This document shows, piece after piece, positions 5,909-25,644 of a stretch of 50,733 nucleotides of DNA. The position numbers were made by a program, and so were the translations under genes. Source of the stretch: Asterionella formosa (Eukaryota); contig NKIB01013826.1 of assembly GCA_002256025.1 (NCBI GenBank), forward strand, positions 1-50,733, read 5' to 3'. A model generated the notes under the pieces. That model saw only the letters and a program-made list of their open reading frames with translations, was not told the origin of the DNA and did no database searches. The number at the start of each line of letters is the position of its first letter. Within the stretch, counting starts at the first letter, position 1.

Positions 5909-8900
5909 ATGTCAACTCCTTTCCGCACACCTCGGCGAGGAGATAACATAAAAACTGTAGCTGCCTCCACTGGCAAAGTCAAAGCAGTCGATTTGGTACG
6001 TCCCCCATGTAGAAGCCCTTCGCTTTATCAAACTCAGGTTCAGACACTCTTTGTACTTCTCGTCCCATTTGACTAGTCTGCTACATAATGAAGATTCCAA
6101 TGAATTCTACTCACAATTATCCCCTTACTATTGTATCCATCAGGTGACAGGAAAAGCAAAAATTGAGTATTTTTTCGATCCATCTCTCCTCATCAGCAAC
6201 AGAGAGGAAGCTACACCCGAAACACCCTTCACGAAAGGTAAAGATACGAATGCGACTACCGGTACTCAGTCTACACCCTTTCGGCAGAATGCATCGACAC
6301 CCTACCGTAAGGACCTTTCAAGCGCAATGAACGACGAAGCATACATCGACCCCCTGCTAAGTGCGTCCAAGCACTTATTCTTGCCTTGTACAATCGTCAA
6401 GGCACTTGACGAGAACTCAGAGGCCAAAGGAAACGGAGAACCAGTTGCTGGTCCCACCCTGGTAAAAACATCGGACGGAACGCTGCACAAGATTTCAGAT
6501 AGTACAAAACTTGTGCCTCTAACCTCTCCTCACGATTATGTGGGCATTGATGATGTGTTGCATTTACCGAATGTAAACGAAGCTAGCTTACTTCACACCC
6601 TTCGTATCCGTTACAAACGAGACGATATTTACACCAATGCTGGGCCCATTTTGATATCGGTCAATCCCTACAAGACAATGTTTTTTGGAAACGGCGAGTC
6701 GCTCTACTCTGACAACAGAATGATGCTTTACCGCAAGAGAACTGAATTCATGGAAGCGCTTCCTCCACATTTATTCCAAGTTGCCGATCGCGCATACTCT
6801 GCTCTGTTGGCTTCTGTCGATTCCGTTCCTCATTTAGAGGAGGAAGATGCGGCCCTTGTCTCTGAAAATCACTTTGCCATTGGAGCAGTCAGGAACCAGA
6901 GCATTGTCATTAGTGGAGAAAGTGGTGCGGGCAAAACCGAAGCAACCAAAAGTATCATGCAGTACTTAGCCCGCATTACCAAACGACCGAACGCATCCAG
7001 TGAAATTAGAAGCCCTGACGGAAAACTTGTCGCTGCCTTAGAGGACAGGGTGCTTTCGTCAAATCCCCTTTTGGAAACTTTTGGCAATGCCAGAACTCTG
7101 AAGAACGACAACTCGTCAAGATTTGGAAAGTTCATTCATATCTTTTTCAACATTGACCGTGGATCAATTACTGGCGCATCGATATCGAACTATCTACTTG
7201 AGAAGACTCGTATCACACATCAAATTGACGGCGAAAGGAATTACCATATTTTCTATCAGCTCCTGGCTGGTGCCAACGATCATATTTTGGCAGAGTTGGG
7301 TCTTTCAGAAGGAATAAGCTCTTTTCAATACCTAGGCAAACGGGAGGGAACCACCAAGTATAAGAAGGACGCAATTGGATTTTCAGAAACTAAAGAATGT
7401 CTTGCACGCGTCGGACTTGGAACAGAGGAACAGAATGTCGTTTTTGGAATCGTTGCCGCTGTGCTGCATATTGGCAACATTGAATTCGACGAAAAGGGTT
7501 CTACAGGTGATGAACACGATGGACAAAGTGATAACGCCACTATAACAAGTGGAAGCAGGCCCAGCCTCAAGAAGGCATGTGAGCTCCTCGGTCTGACTGA
7601 AAGTAAAGTTGAAGAGGCTATGTTGACCAAAATGCTGTCCGTTGGCGGAAAGACTATAAAGAAACCCCAAAATGTTACACAAGCCATCGATAAACGCGAC
7701 GCTTTTGCGAAATTGACTTATTCTTGTCTTTTCCTCTGGTTGGTTGAAAGGGTAAACGAAACTTTGGAGCATACTTCTCCGAATATACAGAAGGATACCG
7801 CACTAGACAGGGACGGTGACGAATTAACACCTCGAAAACGACGATTTTTGAGTAATAGCAGTGGCTTTATTGGAGTACTTGATATATATGGATTTGAGGT
7901 TTTTGACATTAATGGATTCGAGCAGTTCCTTATTAACTACTGCAACGAAAAGCTCCAACGTCACTTCAATCGGCACTTGTTCGAAGTTGAACAGCAGCTG
8001 TACGCTGCCGAAGGTGTTGATTGGACCTACATCACTTTCAATGACAACAAGCCGTGTTTAGAGCTAATCGAAGGAGGGGGAGGCACAGTTGGCATCTTGA
8101 ACACGCTTGATGACTCTTGGGGTGGAATGGGAAGTGCTACTGAAAATGAGGTCAAATTCGTTGCACAGCTTCATAAACAGTTTGGGGGCGCTGCTGGAGC
8201 CTCGCTTAAGTCAAAAGAGAATACCGGTCACGACTACTTTGTTACACCCAAGTTTGGTAATGACCGTCAATTCATTATTGTCCACTACGCTGGAGAGGTA
8301 TGTACAGTGATGTTTCCAGCGTCGCAACATAAACCACACGTATCTGTACTCACTTTAGCACCACCGTTTCAACTATACAGGTTCGATACACTGCAACTGG
8401 ATTCGTCGAGAAGAATATGGAAACAATAAGCAACGAGTTGAGGGACCTCGGAATAGACTCTAATATTGAGATCTCTAAGATGTGTTATTCCGGTGTTTTA
8501 TCAGACCAAGATCCAATATCCTCGAATTCGGGGCGTCGTTCAGCAATTCGGGGCATAAGTGTCGGGTCTCAATTTCGTTCGTCGTTGCAGTCACTCGTTG
8601 CTGACTTGGAACGTACACAGCCACACTACATCAGATGCATCAAGCCAAACCTCAACAAATCTCCCAACACACTCGATGCTGCGGAGGTTGTTCGCCAGCT
8701 CCGATATTCAGGCATGATGGAAGCAATACGAATCCGCAGGGAAGGCTATGCGCTACGTGAAGACCATCAAAGCTTTTACAATCGCTTTAGCATACTTGTG
8801 GGCTTTGGCGAATTCGAAGGTGAAGCAGGCATTGAACAACTTGTAAAGGTCCTATCTCGCCGTCTGAATATTACAGGCATCGACTGGCAGATTGGTCATT

Positions 8901-11900
8901 CCAAGATTTTCCTTCGGAAAGAGCTCGCCGACAAGCTAGAACGATTGTCAAAGCTTCGAGTACAAGCTGCTGCACGCACAGTTGGGAAATTCGGCAGATT
9001 TGTGGCTATAGGGCGAGTGGCGAATTTATTAACAACATGGATTAGGTTCCGTTTGCACATGCTGAACAAGTATAGACGAAACCGAGCAACAAACAAAATC
9101 ACAGCCACGTACCGATGCTTTAAACAATACAATGCTTTCATTTCGATGAAAAGAGCTGTGACGAAATTGCAAGCGCTTCAGAGGAGGAGGCTAGCTGTGG
9201 AATTGACTCGGAGAATGCGTGACCCCTACGGAGACTTTTCCTTCATGGATTTACAGAAACTTGTAAAATCTGAAAAGTCACGTCTCGAGCAGGCAGTAGA
9301 ATCGCAAAATTTCAAAGAAGCTGCAGAGATTGAATCGAAAATGTGAGTCGATTACATCCATATGTGGCCTAAACAACTTTGGAACTCAGAGCGCACTAAC
9401 AGTTCCCCCTGCTTCTTTCCTCTTTGTTAATGCTGCGTTCCCCCTCAGTGCACAGCTTAAAGAAGTCGCTGAAATGAAACGCCCCTTGACACGTGCTCTC
9501 CTTGAAGAGAAAATTACGAGAGCGCAGCTATCGTTAGACTCAGCACTCGAAAGAAAGGCATATGCAGAATGTGGCCCGTTACAAGCTGAAATCGAATGTT
9601 TAAAAGGGAAACGGTCGCAACTCCCAACCATTGACGAGCTAAGACAAGTTCTTTCAAACATAGAGACCGAAATCGCTGTTTTTATTGAATCCCGAAATTT
9701 TGTCGCGGCAGCAGAAGGTCAAACTAGAATTGACGAAGCAAAGAGAAAGCTGGAGGATGCCATTGTGGCTGAGAAAATAGAACCAGAAATTGGAGACGAT
9801 GACGCAAACTATAGACAAGTGAATTTGTTCAATTCAAGAACTGAGTTAGAGATGGAGTTATCTGACTTGAGCATGAAAATCAAGTCAGCGATTGATTCGA
9901 AAGATTTTAAACTCGCATCGGAGCTACAAGTATCGTTTGAGCAAACAGAGGTGTTAAGGAAAGAGTACCCTACCCTTACAGAACTCCAATCTAAACTTCT
10001 TGAGGCTAGGACGAATCTCCAGACAGCTGTCTTAGAAAAGAATTTCGTACTCGCGGATGGTTTAAGCGAGGAAATTATGATATTGGAAGCAAAAGTATCA
10101 AATGAGGAAGCCTGTGCATCGACAAGAACCGATCTTGCAATCGAATCTACAGCTGTTGCGTTGGCGGATGGCTCCGAAAAGGTATTTGAGTCGCGTGTCG
10201 ACCTTGAACGAGAAATCCATGAAGCCGTCATCGAGGTTGCAAACGCTGTTTCAGCAAAATCGTTCAAAATAGCACAATCTCTTCAATTGTATGTTGACTC
10301 CCTAGAAGCACTCAGACACAAACTTCCGTCAATCGAAGATATTCAGGGTTCTTTACGAGAAAAGCGGAAATTACTAGACAGTAAGATAGCGCAAAAGGAC
10401 TTCGTGGGTGCTGAGCTGCTCAATGATGATATCACGATCTTGGAGTGTAAGCTTGCCGGGGAAGTGGCCAAGCGAGCACAAAGCGCCCCTAAACCGATTG
10501 AAGGACACGCTCCCAGTATCCATTCTGAACCTCTCGTTGGGTATGGACGGCAAGGACCAGTTATACCGCAGAATACCGTAAGCGAAGGGATCCTACCTCG
10601 ACGTGTTGGTGCGATCCCGCCTACTCTTGTAAAAGCAAGAGGAGGATATCGTCAAGTCTCAAAGCTGCGTCCGTTAAAGCCTGTGCTTGTTCAGAGTGAC
10701 AGTACCATTGTTGATGTTTGCAAGCTCCTTTCGAGCAAACGAGCCCGTGCAGCAATTCTTACCGGAAAATCTAGTGGAGTAGCTGGGATCATTACTGACA
10801 GCGACATTACCAGGCGAGTTGTTGCCAAGAACCTTGATCCTGCTTCGACCGCTGTGACTACAGTTATGACTCCCAATCCAGTCTGTGTCTCCATGGCAGA
10901 CTCGGCTATCGATGCTCTAGCTATGATGATTGAAAACCGGTACAGGCACCTTCCAGTGGTGGACAAGAATAACCAAGTTTGTGGTCTTCTTGACATCGGA
11001 AAGTGCCTTAATGATGCAATCAGCAAGCTGGAGCATGCCGAGAGTAAGAGCGGGAACGCAGCTCAAGATGCACTTAACCAGGTTGTGCGCCTTCAAGGAG
11101 GTAATGGGGCAAACGCAGCTATATTGCAGGCGCTTTTGGGGCCTTTGATGGCTCAAGCCCTAGGTGATAAGTCATCGCCATCACTTCGAAGTGTTTTGGC
11201 GGGTAAGCCATCAACGGTTGTCAGACCCAGTTGCACCGTTTTAGAAGCTGCCGAAAGAATGGCCGAAAACAGGAAAGCAGCACTGATCGTGGAGGGTGGG
11301 AAACTCGTGGGCATCTTGTCGTTCAAGGATGTGATGAGTCGGGTTATAGCCAAGGAGCTATCACTAAGCGAAACGCCAGTGTCCGACGTCATGACGCCAA
11401 ATCCCGAATCTATGTTGCCTGACGCGACAGTACTGGAAGCATTGCAAGTGATGCACGACAATGACTTCTTGACGCTACCAGTGTGTGAAAGTGATGGCCG
11501 TGTGGTAGGCTTGGTTGACGTGATGGATGTCATTTACGGTTGCGGAGGTGCCGAAGGGTGGCGATCAATCTTCAACAGCGCAGTTGAAATTGATGATGCT
11601 GGTTCTGCTGCATCAGAGGAGCATGACTTGCCATCGGATTTAAGGGGGGCTTCCCTTGCTGCTTTCGCCAGAAATTCTCCAGTGAAGACGGCCCAAGAAC
11701 CAATCTTTGCCTCGGTTCTTGGAAGTATCCCAAGAACAGTGGAGATAGATGTAACTGAAAATTCGTTTGACTTCTCAGAACGGGCGTCGGTGTTCAAAGT
11801 GCTCGACCAGAATGGTAACAATCACCGTATTCGAGCTGATGTGAAACTTGACTCCATTTTTGATTCCTTGCTGCCAAAACTAGGCAAAGGTATTGGACCT

Positions 11901-12146
11901 GACGATGTCACAATTCACTTTTTAGATAATGAAGGTGATGCAGTTTTGATCACCACCGACGACGACCTTGCGGAAGCTGCCAACATTGCAAGGGGGTCTG
12001 GCAATCAAGTTGTAAAGCTGACAGTTTGTTTAAAAAAAAGAGGAACCAATCTGGCTGAAATCCCTGTTGCTCTAGCTGCAGTTGGTGCAGTTATGTTTGG
12101 ACTGATTGCTGCCATTACTGTGATTGCTATGAGGCCAAGGAAGTAG
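5909..12146 (+). CDS. MYO29: Class-29-type myosin: motor domain, IQ-like region, about 7 UVR-like helical repeats, 4 CBS domains, PB1 domain, C-terminal transmembrane helix (about 1966 aa)
   Basis: Exons 5909-5995, 6144-8297, 8381-9342 and 9449-12146 join in frame through GT..AG introns. Motor motifs: P-loop GESGAGKT, switch I NDNSSRFGK, switch II LDIYGFE, PHYIRCIKPN. CBS motifs: GIITDSDITRRVVA, VMTPNP, HLPVVD, LPVCE..GLVDVMD. PB1 motif: FLDNEGDAVLITTDDDL. Hydrophobic tail ending RPRK. Confidence 0.92.
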
Positions 12147-14368: not shown

Positions 14369-15079
14369 TTCCGATGAAGAAATAATATGAATCTATAAAT
14401 TTACCGTTATATAATATGCAAAATGAATCGTACCGGCATCCGGGTGTGTAACCGGAATACACAAGTCTATCTGTACATAACGGGAGTACCTGGTACTGGT
14501 ACTGCAGTTTAGCTAAGTGATGCTCCGTCTTCATCCTGGGTACCTGGTATACTGTGTACATACATGGTCTAGACTTGTATACTATCAGGTACTAGCAAGT
14601 TGCGCTCATTTTGCTGACAGGATCTGACAAATTATAATTTTGTGTTCAAGTACCGGTATTTAGGGACTATGTTAGTTGTTAGTTTAAGCAAATCAACTCT
14701 ACCGGTACTTTAAGGTTGCGGCCCCGGCTTAACCCTAGTTCGTAGAAAATATCGCTAGGGTTGTAAAAACGGCGTGGAACAGGGAGTTTCCTACTATGAA
14801 TTCCCACGATTCGAGTGTCCATTTGAATATTTGAATTAAATAGGAATCGGCGCCAGATTGATAGAATTCCATTAAAAAATGATATTCCAACATTTATACT
14901 ATTTCTACGCTGCAATATGTAGACATAATTTTACTCAACGCCAAAACACATATATAAATTAGGAGTATGCCAACATGTATGCTCATGGCTCGTGTTTATA
15001 CGTTTATATTGAATCTACGTTGCTGTATGTAATTTCAATATCACTCCACGCACAAAGGTATATACCGGTGTGTGAATCC

Positions 15080-15384
15080 CCACGGGCCAACGCCCCGACG
15101 GGTAGGGCAGACCGCGTACTGGTCAAGACTGGGGCTGCACACAGGTTTTTAGTGAGTGAAAGTCTCACACTACCTCGCCCAGGTGAGAGGGGCGGGGTGC
15201 CTCACCGGACACTGGGACATGATTGGATGACGGGGTGCCTCAAACACATTCCTGAACACGTGAACTGGTGGGAGGAGTTAGAATCCTCCCATGATGCCCC
15301 CCAAGCACCCCACATCGATGGGGCAGGCGGGCAAAGCGGCCGGATAGGTTTTCTCCTGGCGCCTTGGAACAGCCCAAAAAAAAA
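15080..15384 (+). mobile_element. SINE-like or 5'-truncated non-LTR retroposed insert (305 nt, structured, A-tailed)
   Basis: Exact 16-bp direct repeat ACCGGTGTGTGAATCC at 15064-15079 and 15385-15400. A-run at 15376-15385. Sharply higher GC than the flanks. Several stem-loops. Confidence 0.85.
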
Positions 15385-15874
15385 ACCGGTGTGTGAATCC
15401 GTACCAGTACTGGAGTCCCAGAGTAATGGTATTTCGGTACTCGGAGTACCAGGTAGTACACAATATTGGTTCATCATGATGGAGGACAGTATGTACTACT
15501 GGTGGTAGTACCGGTACTGTTTTTACCAACCAGGATTCAAAACATCTAATACATGTGGTTCAAGTGTGGCTGGCGAGATTTTACAAGGCCGGGATACTTC
15601 AGCGAATCTGAAGCAGGTGAAGAAAATCAATTCAACCAATCAGAATATGTGCAGTGACGTGGGAACTTACCCTGGAGTCTTTTCGGACTGAGAATTATTC
15701 AGCGAAACATACCTACGCAAGACTCCAAGTATACGAGAACGTTTTTGCACGTACAAATTCTGATTCCAATATTTTGGTGACTGTTGAAAAAGCCGATCGG
15801 GTCGACTTTTTGGAGGAGGATTGTTCTTCATCTACGGGGTTTCATCAAGAATGAAATAGATAGCCGTGTACCCT

Positions 15875-16030
15875 ATATCGTCAGGATTTAACTTCTGCAG
15901 AGAAGTGACAGTTATCCCTCGTGGATTTTTTTAAAAGCTTGATGGCCCCCTTTTTGACTATTTTTTGGATAGTTACGATTCCAAGAGGGATAACTGCCAC
16001 TTCTCTCCAGAAATTAGGTCCTTGCCATAT
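15875..16030. repeat. Imperfect inverted repeat (arms about 50 bp) inside the TTAA element
   Basis: CAGGATTTAACTTCTGCAGAGAAGTGACAGTTATCCCTCGTGGA versus the reverse complement of TCCAAGAGGGATAACTGCCACTTCTCTCCAGAAATTAGGTCCTTG. Confidence 0.8.
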
Positions 16031-17454
16031 CTGAATATAGATCATACCCCTAAGTCGAGGAATGACTGTATCTAAGCATATGCAAAGTGGTAGTATTGGT
16101 GAAAGCTAATTTCACCTTAAACTTTTTTATTTCGTTGCAAGAACTGTGTAGTTTAAAGTACACAATAAAATTATTTTGGAAAAAACAGACCTCGCGATGT
16201 GTAACTGCGGGGCCGCAACCTTAAGCAAAACTGTTTGTAAATCTCCTTTAAGCAAATCTACTTTAAGCAAAATTTTGCTTAAACTAAACAAAGCTGACTA
16301 CGTCATTATGGAAGGAAATTGAGTCACCAGTTATCCCACACTCCTGTTGGCAAATGCATGGCTTGCCTAGCAGTATCAACCCGGTGTCATATGAAGCGGG
16401 ACATAGGAATGGACTGCTGCACATTTGTACTACTGTGGCTACAGGGTCTTACCGCAAGTTTGGAGGACATCATTTACCAGAGTGAATGCTTCACATTTGC
16501 CGGCTTCTACAAGGACTATAGTATAAAAATTGCCCATTCACAATCAATCAATTCTCAGTAGATAATAGCCTTATTTTACATCTTTTGCTTCGATTATTCA
16601 TGTTAATACTGTATTCGTAGTCTCATTTGTTGTGTAGCTACTGTAAAAAGGTCGTATCTGCTGATGATAGCATCGTTGTTTAAAGATTGCGCATCTCTAA
16701 ATTAGATGAATAAACGTGCCAGTGGCGACTTCAATTTTCTTTGTCAATATTAGTGCTATTAGGATCATTCTTTTACGATTGTACTATCTATGTTGTGTTT
16801 GATATATGTATCAAAAAGGAAAGCATCGTTCTCATTTTTCGTCGAGATATTCGCTATTTTCGTCATGGTAAACATTGCGACAACATCATGATGAAGGATT
16901 CTCCAGCCGCTTGCAGCTACACAACTACCATTGCGTATTCAGTATCATTGTTATAGCAACAGTTTGATTAGGTACATAGGTCGTACGTAGATAGGTGACT
17001 GTGATGGCAACAGTGTTGAAATGATGACGTCACAATTAGCAAACGCACTTTAGCAAAACGAACGACAGGCAAATGGCAGAATAAGTGAAACAGATTGGTC
17101 TCAATATTTTAGGCTAAATCAGATTAAAGCTAAATACATGTAGGAACAACAAGCCGGTCGGGTTGGTTTATTAAACGGATGTCAAGAAGAGAGACATGTA
17201 TTAATATTTGGAATTGGAATCAATATTGTCCGTACGAAATACGTGGAACTAGATATAGCAAAATTACAACAACTTACTGGTACATGCAATATTGCTGACG
17301 TCCACGCGCATCATGTGATCATGTTATCACGTTGTTTTACTCTTTCCTTCGTGCTTTTAACATGATTATACTTTACTATTAACTTTTTTCTTTTCTGTTG
17401 CGTCGAAATTTGTTCTTCATCAGTTAGTCGAGGGATTAATAACTGTGCCAGCAA

Positions 17455-21399: not shown

Positions 21400-21942
21400 A
21401 ATAATAATTCTTATGCATGCATAAATAAACAATGATGTTTAATTACCCCGTTATATACCGGTATAAATCACATTGCCGCGTTTCGATTTGTATTTTGTGT
21501 ACCAGGTACCCCTGTCCTGGTAACAAGGTTTTTTGTCTTTGTTTCTCATACGGTAGTTATAATACAGTTATATTATTTCGTGCATCTTCACTCATGATCC
21601 TCTAGTGAGTATAATAAGTACCAGGGTACTAATAAGAAAGTAGTAAAAGAGAAGCAAATGAGTTTCCCGGTAGGAAGATTACGGGTGTGAGCTGCTGGTA
21701 TGTAAATTTCATAAATACATACCTGTACGTATACTCTAATTATAATTCGTGCCTAGCTATACTATCACGACAAGAAAGGCAATTGATTCTATTAACGGCA
21801 GATCCTCATCGAGCAGGAGAAGAAATGGAGATCTCCAGCATCATCAGAATTATCAGCCGAGAAAGGTACCTGGTACCCCGTGCTATGAGATGCATTGTTG
21901 GGAGAATAAACAGCATCAGCTATTGAGAAATATCTGAGCAAC

Positions 21943-24900
21943 ATGCTTTCCCCTTTACAATTGGAAGAGAGTCCTGTCCCAGTCACAATCACAATGGCAA
22001 GCACAAGCGCAAGCGCAACCAAAAGACGGTTTCAATTGCTCCCCGGTGAAGTGATGAAAGCTAGCCGTCGTGGTACTGCTGATTGGTCCTCCATTCTACG
22101 TCCATTTGTGTCTAGCTTGGTCTTTCGTTGCGTCCATAAACGACGGGCTCAATCAGATCCTTCCTTCTTTCCATGGAGTGGCCATTGCGCTTTACTCTTT
22201 GTTGATTTATCGGAATATTCCAAAGTTACTTCCGCTCTTGCTGACAAGGGAGCTTTTGTTCTTTCTAGTGTCGTTAACGCATATCTCGAGCGGCTACTCA
22301 TGATTGTCAGGGAGTATGGAGGGGACGTTGTCAAGTTCGCGGGGGATGCTATATTGATAGTGTGGGAAGGCGAGAAGGAAGAATTAGACTTGAGTGTACT
22401 TTGCGCAGCACAGTGTGCGATACAGATGCAGGAACGGGCGGGTACCCATGAAATTGAAGGCTATGATTTGACATTTAGAATTCACATCGGATTATGCTGC
22501 GGAAGATTAGAGACTGAGATATTCGAAGCCCCTACGCATGTCAATATGCAGCGACTATATCATGCTATTGGGGGGAAACCGCTGGAAGAAATCGGAGGAC
22601 TTGTGGATTTGGCTAAATCTGGAGAAGTTTGCGTTTCGGAAGAGTGCCATCGAATTCTGAAATTGTTTGGATCCTTCAGGCGGTGTGGGCCATATATTTC
22701 TGCGCACATCCTCATCTCCCTGAACATAGATGATATCAATGAAGAGAGAATCGAAAATCATGTGGACGACCTCTTGCGAGATCGAGAACTCGCGAGAAAG
22801 TTCGACATCCTAGAAGCTTTCGTGCCTCCTTGTGTTATCAATCTCCTCGTACATAGCGGAAACTCGCCGACTCAAATCGCTCAGATGAGAAATCTTTGCG
22901 TCTTATTCATCGGCATGACTTCGACCGGATCGCCTGTCAATTGGCTACTAGAGGTGCATGGGATTCTAGACAAGCACCGATGTCCAATTGTGCAAATAAT
23001 TCACGATGATAAGGGTGTTCATGTTGTGGCAGCTGTCAATTTATACGAATCTGTTCCAGAAGCAACCACACTGGCTCTTGATGCAGCACGGGTTTTGGTG
23101 CAACAACAAGTAGGTTGCTCGATGGGTATGGCCATGGGTTCCACCTTTTGCGGGGTTACTGGGTGTGCGCAGGTGGCTTGTAGATGGGATATCACTGGGT
23201 TTCCTGTCGTACGTGCAGCTCGACTTATGCAATGGGCAACCTTGAAAGGGATAGCTGTGGCAATTGATGAAACGATTTATAACAACACAGTTGCCTCCAA
23301 TCGCATGGTCCGTGTTTCTGCTGGCATCAACCTCAAAGGCACAGCAAACCAAATTCCTGTTTTTACTCTTTCGGAGTCATCCAATTTTGCCGCATCCATG
23401 ATCATGGAGCACACAACACTAGCACCAATTCACAATGACATTGTTGACCAAATCTATGGTATTCTTTCGGGCTCCAAATGTCGAGGAGTTGTCGTTATCA
23501 CAGGTCCACCACTGGCAGGCAAGAAAAGTATATGCCAACGTGCTGCCGGACGTGCAGGGCTTGTCCCTATTCTGCACATCTGTTCTTCTGGTGGAGGTCA
23601 TTTCCAACTAGCTAGAACGATTGTGACATGGTATCGACATTGCAGGGACCCTGAGATTAGGGAGGTAGCAGCAGTTGTCGAAAATCATTTAAATAACCAG
23701 CATTGGAGTCGGGCACACGAAGAATGTGTGCGCTTGTTCAATGTCGTGATGGTAGCTGGATATCACGGTTGCTTCATTGTTGATCGGTGCCAATTTCTTG
23801 ACGATTTCTCGATATCCTTGATACGGGACTGTGTAGGCGGCAGCATTCAAACTAAAGCTTCTCAAGTCAGGAATTTTGAATCACTACGATCTTCAATAGC
23901 TGAAGGCTCTGTTGAAGGAAAAATTTTCTTCCTTTGTGTTCATTTTCCATTGTATAAATGGCCGACGGATCATTGTTTCGTGTATGGGCTGCAACGCACG
24001 AAGGACATCGATGTTTCACTTTTTCGAGTTACCGAAGTCCCTATATGTGAACTTCGAATCGCTGTCACACACTGCTTCGACTTGGAAGCCACTCAAAATT
24101 ATATTTCTGTTATTGCAGAACAGGCCGGATTTAGTGTAGGTTGCTTCTTGAAGAGAATTGAGGCCATCAGAACACTCTCGGTGCAGCAATCGAGAATGGG
24201 GAAGTCATCATATTCGATGATCAACTCAAACTTAAATCTTTTTATTCCGTCAGACATGGTACGCCACCATCGCAAGCTCAACATTATGCAGGTCAGTCCA
24301 GAGATTGGGATGCGTTTCACGCAAGGATTCGATGAATTACCGCCAAGATATCAAACCTTTATGAAGCTTCTGGGTATTTTGCCAACAAAAGGTTTCGTTT
24401 ACCTCTGTCCGTTTCATATCATAAGTGAAGTGATGGACGATATTTTTGACGAAGGAGTAGAAACTGACTGGCTCGAGACTGTTCTCATTGAGTTGCGTGA
24501 CCTTTACATGATTAAGGTGCATGGCGAGGGAATTGAGAGAAGGCTTTCTTTGTATAATCCTGCCCTAGCCGATGTCGTTTTCGATGTCTCTACCCCCGCA
24601 CAAGTGCAATATATGAGCACTGCCATCCTTGGTAGACTCGAGCCACACCTCACTGAATGCTACGAAGTACCAATGGTTTGCGCAACTCTTTGGGGGCATC
24701 TGAAGGACTACGAGCAACAAAAGGGAATGTGGATCCAAGGCTACACGCAGCTACTAAAGGAGAGCTCAGAATGGACCGAAGAACGACTGAATGCGCTCAA
24801 ATTCCTTCTTCAGCAGGAAATGTTAAATAGTTTGTGTTGCCCAGAACTGCTGCTTGGAGGGGATTTCTCTTTTACCGTCATCGACGATCACACGCCCATC

Positions 24901-25644
24901 AGCCATAAGATATTGATGTTGAAGAATTATTCGGCTCCGATCAGTTATGGACCATTAGGGCATACTTTCAATGTCATAACAAGATGTACTTTTCGCGAGA
25001 TACGAGTGATAAATGGTGGTGCGACAGAGGATGAGAACGAGAAGATCAGATACGAATCAGCAAGCGCCTTCAGTCGCTTTAAACAGGAGGTCGGTATTGT
25101 TGAAAACTTTCTTCGTGAAAAGGGCTACGGAGAATCCAATGAATATCTCCAAAAGGAATTAGAACTGGTGGAGAAATGCACAACGCCAGGGAAAAGTCGT
25201 GTTTGCGTAGAAATGAAGGCTCATATCATATTGGACGAGCTTTTGCCGCATTTTGTATCACCGAGACTGAAACGATTGCACTTGGTGTGCGCAAGGCTAA
25301 GGGGAGTCTCCGAAGAACTAGATATCATGAAGTTTGCACCACATCCAATCCGAATGGCATATTCCTCTCTGCGCCTCCACGACGACCGAAACGACTCAGT
25401 TCAGCACGCCCTAATTACATTGGCAACTCAAAACTGGGTCCCGAGGAAACTACCTGAGGATTTGCCTCCGTTCCACTATCAAACTACTGCAAGAATTCGT
25501 GATGCGGTGCTGAGGACACTTAGCCAGGGTGAATTGGAACTGTTTCAATATCAACATTCATGGGAAGATCTAGAAGCCTTCCTCGTAACCACTGCCATAT
25601 TGACCCTTTTTTGTGAGAGAGTTCATAAAGGAGAATGGTATTGA
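21943..25644 (+). CDS. Soluble adenylyl cyclase (ADCY10/sAC)-like protein: tandem class III cyclase domains plus a P-loop region (1233 aa)
   Basis: First domain: LLFVDLSEYSK, GGDVVKFAGDA, RIHIGLCCG. Second domain: LCVLFIG, HDDKG, GSTFCGVTG, WDITGFPVVRAARLM. P-loop-like ITGPPLAGKKS and Walker-B-like FIVDRCQFLD. Confidence 0.85.
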   Translation: MLSPLQLEESPVPVTITMASTSASATKRRFQLLPGEVMKASRRGTADWSSILRPFVSSLVFRCVHKRRAQSDPSFFPWSGHCALLFVDLSEYSKVTSALADKGAFVLSSVVNAYLERLLMIVREYGGDVVKFAGDAILIVWEGEKEELDLSVLCAAQCAIQMQERAGTHEIEGYDLTFRIHIGLCCGRLETEIFEAPTHVNMQRLYHAIGGKPLEEIGGLVDLAKSGEVCVSEECHRILKLFGSFRRCGPYISAHILISLNIDDINEERIENHVDDLLRDRELARKFDILEAFVPPCVINLLVHSGNSPTQIAQMRNLCVLFIGMTSTGSPVNWLLEVHGILDKHRCPIVQIIHDDKGVHVVAAVNLYESVPEATTLALDAARVLVQQQVGCSMGMAMGSTFCGVTGCAQVACRWDITGFPVVRAARLMQWATLKGIAVAIDETIYNNTVASNRMVRVSAGINLKGTANQIPVFTLSESSNFAASMIMEHTTLAPIHNDIVDQIYGILSGSKCRGVVVITGPPLAGKKSICQRAAGRAGLVPILHICSSGGGHFQLARTIVTWYRHCRDPEIREVAAVVENHLNNQHWSRAHEECVRLFNVVMVAGYHGCFIVDRCQFLDDFSISLIRDCVGGSIQTKASQVRNFESLRSSIAEGSVEGKIFFLCVHFPLYKWPTDHCFVYGLQRTKDIDVSLFRVTEVPICELRIAVTHCFDLEATQNYISVIAEQAGFSVGCFLKRIEAIRTLSVQQSRMGKSSYSMINSNLNLFIPSDMVRHHRKLNIMQVSPEIGMRFTQGFDELPPRYQTFMKLLGILPTKGFVYLCPFHIISEVMDDIFDEGVETDWLETVLIELRDLYMIKVHGEGIERRLSLYNPALADVVFDVSTPAQVQYMSTAILGRLEPHLTECYEVPMVCATLWGHLKDYEQQKGMWIQGYTQLLKESSEWTEERLNALKFLLQQEMLNSLCCPELLLGGDFSFTVIDDHTPISHKILMLKNYSAPISYGPLGHTFNVITRCTFREIRVINGGATEDENEKIRYESASAFSRFKQEVGIVENFLREKGYGESNEYLQKELELVEKCTTPGKSRVCVEMKAHIILDELLPHFVSPRLKRLHLVCARLRGVSEELDIMKFAPHPIRMAYSSLRLHDDRNDSVQHALITLATQNWVPRKLPEDLPPFHYQTTARIRDAVLRTLSQGELELFQYQHSWEDLEAFLVTTAILTLFCERVHKGEWY

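What the first reader, a model, noticed from the sequence alone, without database searches (positions are those of the whole stretch)
15064..15400. Young 305-nt structured RNA retroposed with a perfect 16-bp TSD and A-tail, not obviously tRNA-, 5S- or 7SL-derived
Seen: an exact TSD (ACCGGTGTGTGAATCC), a 10-A tail and a GC-rich body in AT-rich flanks. Stem-loops include GTGAG-TGAAAGT-CTCAC, CCCAG/GGTGAG..CTCACC/CTGGG, GGGAGGA-GTTAGAA-TCCTCCC and CCCCA-CATCGA-TGGGG. Established: a long TSD plus an A-tail is the signature of target-primed reverse transcription by a non-LTR element. Inference: this is an uncharacterised diatom SINE, a LINE 3' end, or a retrocopy of an unknown structured ncRNA. From memory and unverified, GGTTTTTAGTGAGTGAAAGTCTCACACT..CTCGCCC..ATTGGATGA recalls a stem-loop at the 3' ends of some insect R1-clade LINEs and SINEs, which would be unexpected in a diatom. 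A-box-like TGGTCAAGACTGG and B-box-like GAGTTAGAATCC are present but about 150 nt apart.
Basis: partly seen in the sequence, partly recalled or inferred. Interest (0 to 1): 0.72.

Follow-up and report, generated by a model that had tools for sequence, protein, structure and literature searches.

The report
LINE tail with fixed start point
This insert is the folded tail end of an active jumping gene (a LINE) in a diatom-like alga, and the surprise is that most scattered tail-only copies begin at almost the same base, as if the tail were released as its own small RNA and copied back into the genome.

Summary
The TSD, A-tail and GC-rich body are real. Other copies of the host repeat are empty. 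The body is not an unknown ncRNA or a Pol III SINE. It is the last 26 nt of the ORF plus the whole 3' UTR of a single-ORF APE-RT LINE.

The truncation is not random. Of 54 independent dispersed copies with a visible 5' junction, 32 start within 5 nt (-3..+1) of this copy's start. They are 73-100% identical to the LINE and carry variants of several LINE subfamilies, which argues against one master SINE.

The start lies 6 nt before a covarying RNA arm, resembling a tetraloop receptor, that overlaps the stop codon. A covarying hairpin with a twister-sister-SL4-type loop follows. Both persist in distant LINEs.

Most likely a discrete ~300-nt 3' RNA is processed from LINE transcripts and retroposed (inferred, about 45%); RT release or an internal promoter are the rivals. 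No RNA ends were seen. The scan earlier called a probable sister copy in this genome an ordinary truncated LINE tail (e1-7576762).

The parts
14710..16224 (.). Host repeat: TTAA-flanked element with terminal inverted repeats (MITE-like), into which the unit inserted
   Evidence: 17-nt perfect inverted arms 14710-14726 and 16208-16224; other copies align across the site without the insert
15064..15079 (+). Left target-site duplication, 16 bp
   Evidence: single copy in the empty host repeats
15080..15375 (+). LINE 3' unit (ORF end plus 3' UTR), 99% identical to ORF-attached copies; 15080 is the recurrent start site
15080..15105 (+). Last 26 nt of the LINE ORF including the TAG stop at 15103-15105 (peptide end STGQRPDG)
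   Evidence: a P-x-G C-terminus in 32 of 120 homologous proteins
15086..15108 (+). Conserved stem / internal loop / stem arm overlapping the stop codon; internal loop resembles the 11-nt GNRA-tetraloop receptor
   Evidence: receptor sequence from PMC1464144; unselected compensatory variant in L264/L265
15111..15123 (+). Small hairpin after the arm (3-4 bp, 7-nt loop), with paired changes in relatives seen by eye
   Evidence: alignments; pairs not counted
15144..15173 (+). Most conserved module: U-run followed by a bulged hairpin with loop G-UGAAAGU-C (T-loop-like; 8 of 9 letters as in twister-sister SL4). The T5 run 15146-15150 would stop Pol III.
   Evidence: SL4 residues from PMC5660989; T-run
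15175..15195 (+). Variable hairpin after the conserved module
   Evidence: predicted fold; paired changes by eye
15270..15290 (+). 7-bp hairpin with B-box-like loop (GTTCGAA in ORF-attached copies, GTTAGAA here)
15308..15323 (+). 5-bp hairpin, conservation beyond this family not shown
15376..15385 (+). A-tail (last A shared with the TSD)
15385..15400 (+). Right target-site duplication, 16 bp

Best explanation
The insert is the 3' unit of an active single-ORF APE-RT LINE, inserted by the LINE's own protein through target-primed reverse transcription (identity shown, about 95%). The unit is regenerated again and again with the same 5' end (shown). The most likely cause (inferred) is a discrete ~300-nt RNA cut or trimmed from LINE transcripts, by an endonucleolytic cut or by a 5'-to-3' exonuclease that stops just ahead of the folded arm. 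This RNA keeps the protein-binding fold and the A-tail, so it is a complete template. The arm and the T-loop-like hairpin probably dock on each other or on the LINE protein (inferred from motif type only).
For: Continuity with an RT ORF; full protein 1475 aa with APE and RT domains. 32 of 54 independent junctions at -3..+1, 35 at -3..+6, 14 further downstream, 5 further upstream; 32 of 44 within -64..+64, naive p about 1e-35. Young solos carry both haplotypes found in ORF-attached copies and share no private variant. Older solos share diagnostic blocks with older ORF-attached copies L251/L255 and L245/L259. The start sits 6 nt before an arm found near the stop in 15 of 26 related loci and 0 times in 111 kb of their upstream sequence. 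The arm is kept where it does not encode the GQxPxG end (L151, L153, L156, L160, L164) and in a non-coding family. Starts are pyrimidines (C or U), which fits processing better than a polymerase start (general knowledge). Full-length 5' ends of this LINE and of relatives also begin at the first base of a helix.
Against: No RNA 5' end was observed: only contigs were available, and the one RNA contig laid runs 163 nt upstream into the ORF. No Rfam ribozyme or other family matches the unit. A helix closing the unit at its 5' end, expected for an exonuclease block, is not supported (combined p = 0.67). The whole unit is not unusually stable. The clade and the protein-RNA contact are untested. One older solo subfamily (L238, L239, L243, L244) had no ORF-attached counterpart in my sample.
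Confidence: 0.45

Rival explanations
1. RT-level hot spot: the protein is anchored to the folded 3' domain, and once it has copied through the arm it loses the anchor and often releases or jumps a few bases later. No short RNA exists.
For: The start is just upstream of the last conserved module. Template jumps look frequent: arrays are mosaics of LINE fragments, and all 51 loci with two or more pieces (redundant loci included) have them in one orientation. R2 template jumps in vivo are described in PMC3414825 (passages).
Against: A 2-3-nt-wide peak held across subfamilies is sharp for stochastic release. Structures usually block RT at their 3' side, not beyond their 5' side (general knowledge).
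Confidence: 0.25
2. The unit is transcribed on its own from an internal Pol II-type start, in LINEs and in solo copies: a headless SINE, or a HeT-A-like 3' promoter serving tandem arrays.
For: The solo start and both full-length 5' variants begin with a similar Y-C-A-C-S-G word. 3' units lie directly upstream of LINE 5' ends in arrays (L005, L040, L044).
Against: Starts are at pyrimidines. Young solos have no private variants and track the LINE haplotypes. Sequence after the shared word is unrelated between the starts.
Confidence: 0.22
3. A Pol III SINE with a type-2 internal promoter, which the LINE carries as its 3' UTR.
For: A-box-like word at 15120; ORF-attached copies have a B-box-like GTTCGAATCC; three loci start at +22/+23.
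Against: T5 run between the boxes, conserved as a U-run in relatives; start 40 nt before the A-like word; no tRNA call and no Rfam match; the B-like word is not kept as a B box in relatives.
Confidence: 0.04
4. Ordinary random 5' truncation, with the peak produced by ascertainment or by duplication of a few insertions.
For: One of three pattern searches needed bases +4..+30 intact; loci were grouped and starts adjusted by hand; array contigs without a visible junction were left out.
Against: Hot-spot loci have different flanks and 15 of 35 have their own TSD of 9 nt or more. The search bias cannot explain the lack of starts just upstream of -3 or between +7 and +64.
Confidence: 0.04

Closest known systems
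5'-truncated copies of APE-type LINEs (TPRT products; human L1 ORF2p is the best solved-structure match, E = 1e-25)
   Same: A-tail, 7-17-bp TSDs of no fixed sequence, body colinear with the LINE 3' end
   Different: Truncation is concentrated at one site instead of being spread; single ORF; L1 matches over the RT region only
Stringent-type LINE 3' tails recognised by the LINE protein (PMC5786205, first fifth read plus passages; PMC3414825, passages)
   Same: Conserved secondary structure in the 3' UTR, kept in non-autonomous derivatives
   Different: The conserved modules lie 200-290 nt from the tail, one overlaps the stop codon, and they resemble tertiary-contact motifs; binding not tested
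Bipartite non-autonomous LINEs: R2 SIDEs, RIME, NARTc, Vingi derivatives, Bov-A (same two papers)
   Same: Short, non-coding, LINE-derived, not Pol III-headed, mobilised by the parent LINE
   Different: These keep the LINE 5' end or ribozyme joined to the 3' end; this unit has only the 3' end and seems to be remade from each LINE subfamily. A second family here (L264, L265, L148:1-704) does look bipartite
tRNA-derived SINEs (SINE2)
   Same: About 300 nt, dispersed, common 5' end, A-tail, TSDs
   Different: No tRNA head, internal T5, wholly LINE-derived
Twister-sister ribozyme SL4 (PMC5660989, passages) and the 11-nt tetraloop receptor (PMC1464144, passages)
   Same: Loop G-U-G-C-A-A-G-U-C matches 9 of 9 in L161, L264 and L265 and 8 of 9 here; the arm has the CC-xAx-G / U-A-x-GG layout of CCUAAG-UAUGG
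   Different: No twister-sister Rfam match; its catalytic loop is not conserved in relatives; the receptor's U is mostly A

Membership tests
APE-type non-LTR retrotransposon (parent element) | ORF with APE endonuclease and RT | tested here: met
   P0001, 98% identical to the local ORF: PF03372 at 227-433 and PF00078 at 786-1034, both above cut-off
APE-type non-LTR retrotransposon (parent element) | Insertions end in an A-tail with TSDs, empty sites exist | tested here: met
RTE, L1 or R1 clade | Placement in an RT phylogeny with classified references | not testable with these tools
   No Repbase or RTclass references held. Single ORF and a 5' pseudoknot-like motif recall RTE (from memory); a C-terminal CCHC is present
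Insect R1-clade 3' motif | Same U-run hairpin in R1 3' UTRs | tested here: inconclusive
   0 hits in the 7 supplements of PMC3414825 and 0 papers for a 10-nt motif search; other R1-clade elements not available
Pol III SINE (tRNA, 5S or 7SL head) | Head derived from a small RNA | tested here: not met
   ARAGORN 0 genes, Rfam 0 matches at E <= 10; the 5' part is LINE coding sequence
Pol III SINE (tRNA, 5S or 7SL head) | A and B boxes with no internal terminator | tested here: not met
   T5 between the box-like words and T4 at 15349
SINE in the wide sense | Many copies with a common 5' end | tested here: met
   32 of 54 independent loci
SINE in the wide sense | Own lineage with diagnostic variants, separate from the LINE | tested here: not met
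   No private shared variant in young solos; old solos match old ORF-attached copies; one old subfamily unresolved
SIDE / bipartite non-autonomous LINE | LINE 5' end joined to LINE 3' end | tested here: not met
   The body is colinear with the last 296 nt of the LINE only
Known self-cleaving ribozymes (HDV-like, hammerhead, twister, twister-sister) | Catalytic core and topology at the start site | tested here: not met
   No Rfam match; the HDV-like descriptor does not fit the 3' unit
Known self-cleaving ribozymes (HDV-like, hammerhead, twister, twister-sister) | Self-cleavage in vitro | not testable with these tools
   needs an assay
Exoribonuclease-resistant RNA | Blocks a 5'-to-3' exonuclease; fold closed at the 5' end | tested here: inconclusive
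   Closing helix not better than controls; resistance needs an assay

The most novel reading that the evidence does not exclude
A widespread, unclassified LINE lineage carries in its 3' UTR a compact tertiary-folded RNA (receptor-like arm plus T-loop hairpin) that sets its own 5' end, by a new kind of self-cleavage or by blocking exonucleases. It thereby yields a subgenomic RNA that retroposes as a promoter-less SINE equivalent, remade from every LINE generation.
Probability: 0.2. Interest if true: 0.8.

Novelty: new variant of a known kind. Interest (0 to 1): 0.52.

Why it matters
How LINE 5' truncation is decided, and how SINE tails first arise from LINEs, are open questions. Here one site gives about 60% of the dispersed junctions over a long period, next to a covarying RNA module. 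That makes a direct test possible: short RNA, RT stop or promoter. A ready-made 3' unit would be a natural precursor for SINEs, needing only a head. The two modules are also a new conserved RNA family absent from Rfam, present in LINEs that are only 30-45% alike in protein. If the cause is only an RT pause, the finding is a modest variant of ordinary LINE biology.

Tried and rejected
Rfam: 0 matches on the element and nothing relevant in the 3' UTRs of 5 and 12 related loci. ARAGORN found no tRNA gene.

Whole-element folding energy is not above chance, and 90-nt windows gave no clear signal. A helix closing the unit at its 5' end was proposed by eye and rejected.

Twister-sister mapping by eye: parts of the catalytic loop can be placed in this copy, but they are not conserved in relatives, and the cut would fall about 124 nt into the unit, where only one copy starts.

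Co-translational decay at the stop codon: the recalled offset of about 17 nt does not fit the 23-25 nt seen.

Telomeric retrotransposon: one three-unit telomere-repeat patch lies in one array variant, but no LINE protein match was found in the 23 telomere-repeat loci fetched from 7 contigs. Not supported.

The hairpin motif gave 0 matches in viral contigs and 2 in prokaryote assemblies, probably stray eukaryotic DNA. The protein atlas gave nothing useful for the N-terminal domain and only generic APE-RT clusters for the whole protein. No search of the 50%-clustered protein library was obtained. The bacterial promoter scan is irrelevant here and gave 0 sites.

Paper searches with no relevant hit. 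Repbase, Dfam and SINEBase could not be searched, so the family may already be catalogued. Ruminski et al. 2011 was not available and is known here only through its citation in PMC5786205.

Full report
Observation. The 16-bp duplication (15064-15079, 15385-15400), the A run (15376-15385) and the GC-rich body (0.61 against 0.37 and 0.43) are as described. The insert sits in a multicopy TTAA-flanked inverted-repeat element, 14710-16224. A search with the right flank scored 40 of 55 candidates and I fetched 25 loci; the 24 that are not this site all lack the element, and most run straight through one copy of the target. A joint that skips the element is present in the 3 DNA runs of the 4 laid; one of these may be the window's own source. 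The body as a whole folds no better than shuffles (z = -0.17). Rfam and ARAGORN find nothing. The surrounding genes and the freshwater habitats of the runs fit a diatom-like alga.

What it is. The first genome search returned 40 scored matches of 132 candidates at 98-100% identity. In 26 of the 30 fetched loci the body is preceded by one shared sequence. It is the end of an ORF with the RT motif, a CCHC knuckle and the terminus STGQRPDG-stop; the stop lies at window 15103-15105. The full protein is 1475 aa with APE and RT domains (P0001, 98% identical), and a complete copy is L148. Exact-pattern counts were 62 for the 3' end and 61 for the 5' UTR; many are near-identical short contigs, so these are not copy numbers. 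The insert is therefore the last 26 coding bases plus the 3' UTR of an active LINE. The clade could not be fixed. Homologues occur in brown algae, microsporidia and a fungus by the few source names given.

The fixed start. I fetched the copies not yet held from three pattern searches (fetched) and mapped their 5' junctions. Duplicated flanks were grouped by hand, and some BLAST starts were adjusted by hand for CpG decay or chance extension (L049, L071, L233, L240, L243, L256, and L258, which has an internal deletion). I left out L044 (contig start), L048 (N gap), L251 and L255 (junction outside the fetched stretch), L264 (second family), three junctions inside LINE arrays (L024, L030, L068) and the ORF-attached contigs that end before any junction. 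Of 54 independent loci, 32 start at -3..+1 relative to 15080, 35 at -3..+6, 14 further downstream and 5 further upstream. One of those 5 (L265) and the pair L043/L047 probably belong to the second family. Within -64..+64 the count is 32 of 44 (p about 1e-35 under a uniform, independent null, which is naive). favours copies with +4..+30 intact, but that cannot create a peak at one edge. Hot-spot copies are 73-100% identical to L148, and 15 of the 35 show their own TSD of 9-17 nt.

Not one master SINE. Among young solos, L001 and L002 carry the 166C haplotype and L038, L060, L062 and L071 the 181A haplotype; both occur in ORF-attached copies (6 and 21 of the 30 given). Older solos share a diagnostic block with older ORF-attached copies. 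The unit thus seems to be remade from each LINE generation. One old subfamily lacks an attached counterpart in my sample.

RNA structure. An arm overlapping the stop codon (15086-15108) was found by a pairing descriptor near the stop in 15 of 26 loci (L148 included) and 0 times in 111 kb of their upstream sequence; the 50.7-kb window gave 5 hits, so the descriptor is not absolutely specific. On 14 aligned arms 97.9% of cells pair, 4 of 7 pairs change on both sides, and 0 of 500 shuffles reach the covariation score. These rows were selected for pairing, so the percentage is circular; the position, the invariant loop letters and the unselected CAC/GTG variant in L264/L265 are not. The arm persists off-frame and outside the ORF, so the conserved peptide end (32 of 120 proteins) is probably a by-product of the RNA. 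Its internal loop follows the layout of the 11-nt receptor CCUAAG-UAUGG (PMC1464144, passages). The hairpin at 15144-15173 pairs in 95.2% of cells over 12 sequences, with 3 of 7 pairs changed on both sides and 0 of 500 shuffles as high. A model built on it found 18 matches at E <= 1 in 53 sources: 10 of its own training rows, L148 (same family), and 7 others. Its loop equals SL4 of the twister-sister ribozyme (G29-C37 in PMC5660989, passages) at 8 or 9 of 9 letters; calling it a T-loop rests on my recall of that motif. PMC11620745 (passages) gave the catalytic-loop comparison, which is not conserved here. A helix closing the unit at its 5' end was not supported.

How it most likely works. Shown: insertion by TPRT, LINE origin, recurrent start, two covarying modules. 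Inferred: the LINE protein grips the folded 3' domain, as for stringent LINEs (PMC5786205, first fifth and passages; PMC3414825, passages and a supplement search). The fixed start is best explained by a discrete RNA produced by processing (about 45%). RT release after the anchor (25%) and an internal Pol II start (22%) remain open. Pol III is unlikely because of the T5 run between the box-like words and the 40-nt distance to the A-like word. The only RNA contig laid extends 163 nt into the ORF and cannot show a start.

Comparison and novelty. It works like a stringent LINE tail and is distributed like a SINE, but it fails the tests for Pol III SINEs, for SIDE-type bipartite elements and for known ribozymes. 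Full-text searches found no paper on such a motif or hot spot; the library lacks most subscription journals and the repeat databases. Notes e1-7632980 and e1-7631746 report structured LINE tails in other genomes; I did not check whether they concern the same motif.

Verdict. A real, young insertion of a LINE 3' unit: a new variant of a known kind, interest 0.52. The boldest open reading, a self-delimiting subgenomic LINE RNA, has about 20% probability and would deserve 0.8.

Noticed in passing
window 14710-16224: The host is a ~1.2-kb TTAA-flanked element with 17-nt inverted ends and many copies; another solo LINE tail (L060) sits in a copy of the same repeat at a different position.
   Followed up: partly
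L162:89-103 and 6160-6180; L164:40-55; L151:105-125: Related LINEs are inserted in 28S rDNA. L162 and L164 share one 5' junction; L162 has a 15-bp TSD whose 3' junction is about 46-48 bp after the R2 site by my count, against 60 bp for R1 in PMC3414825. L151 uses another 28S site.
   Followed up: partly
L148:11-60, L151, L153, L162, L165, L171 5' ends: The 5' ends carry a P1-P3-L3-P3'-P1' layout like HDV-type ribozymes, starting at the element's first base but with C; the rest of the HDV core was not established.
   Followed up: partly
L264, L265, L148:1-704: A second, non-coding family that seems to join the LINE 5' module, about 550 nt of unrelated sequence and a variant 3' unit with a compensatory change in the arm: a SIDE-like bipartite element.
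   Followed up: partly
L005, L033, L034, L040, L067, L136-L146: Full-length LINE ends lie in head-to-tail mosaic arrays on short contigs, with two alternative 5' UTR starts and short LINE fragments between copies; 0 of 51 multi-piece loci have mixed orientation.
   Followed up: partly
L034 (minus strand 2104-2122): A three-unit telomere-repeat patch inside one array variant, in the orientation expected for end-healing; no further support.
   Followed up: partly
P0001 residues 105-190: A conserved N-terminal domain ahead of the endonuclease with no Pfam match; the full ORF has no in-frame ATG at its called start in the local copies.
   Followed up: partly
L258: A solo copy that begins at the hot spot and then jumps to +64: an internal deletion of the arm.
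   Followed up: no
window 5961-12146: A myosin-motor-like gene continuing into coiled-coil and CBS-like repeats (read from the ORF translations; not searched).
   Followed up: no
window 21910-25644: A 1244-aa ORF resembling soluble adenylate/guanylate cyclases with a P-loop (read from the translation; not searched).
   Followed up: no
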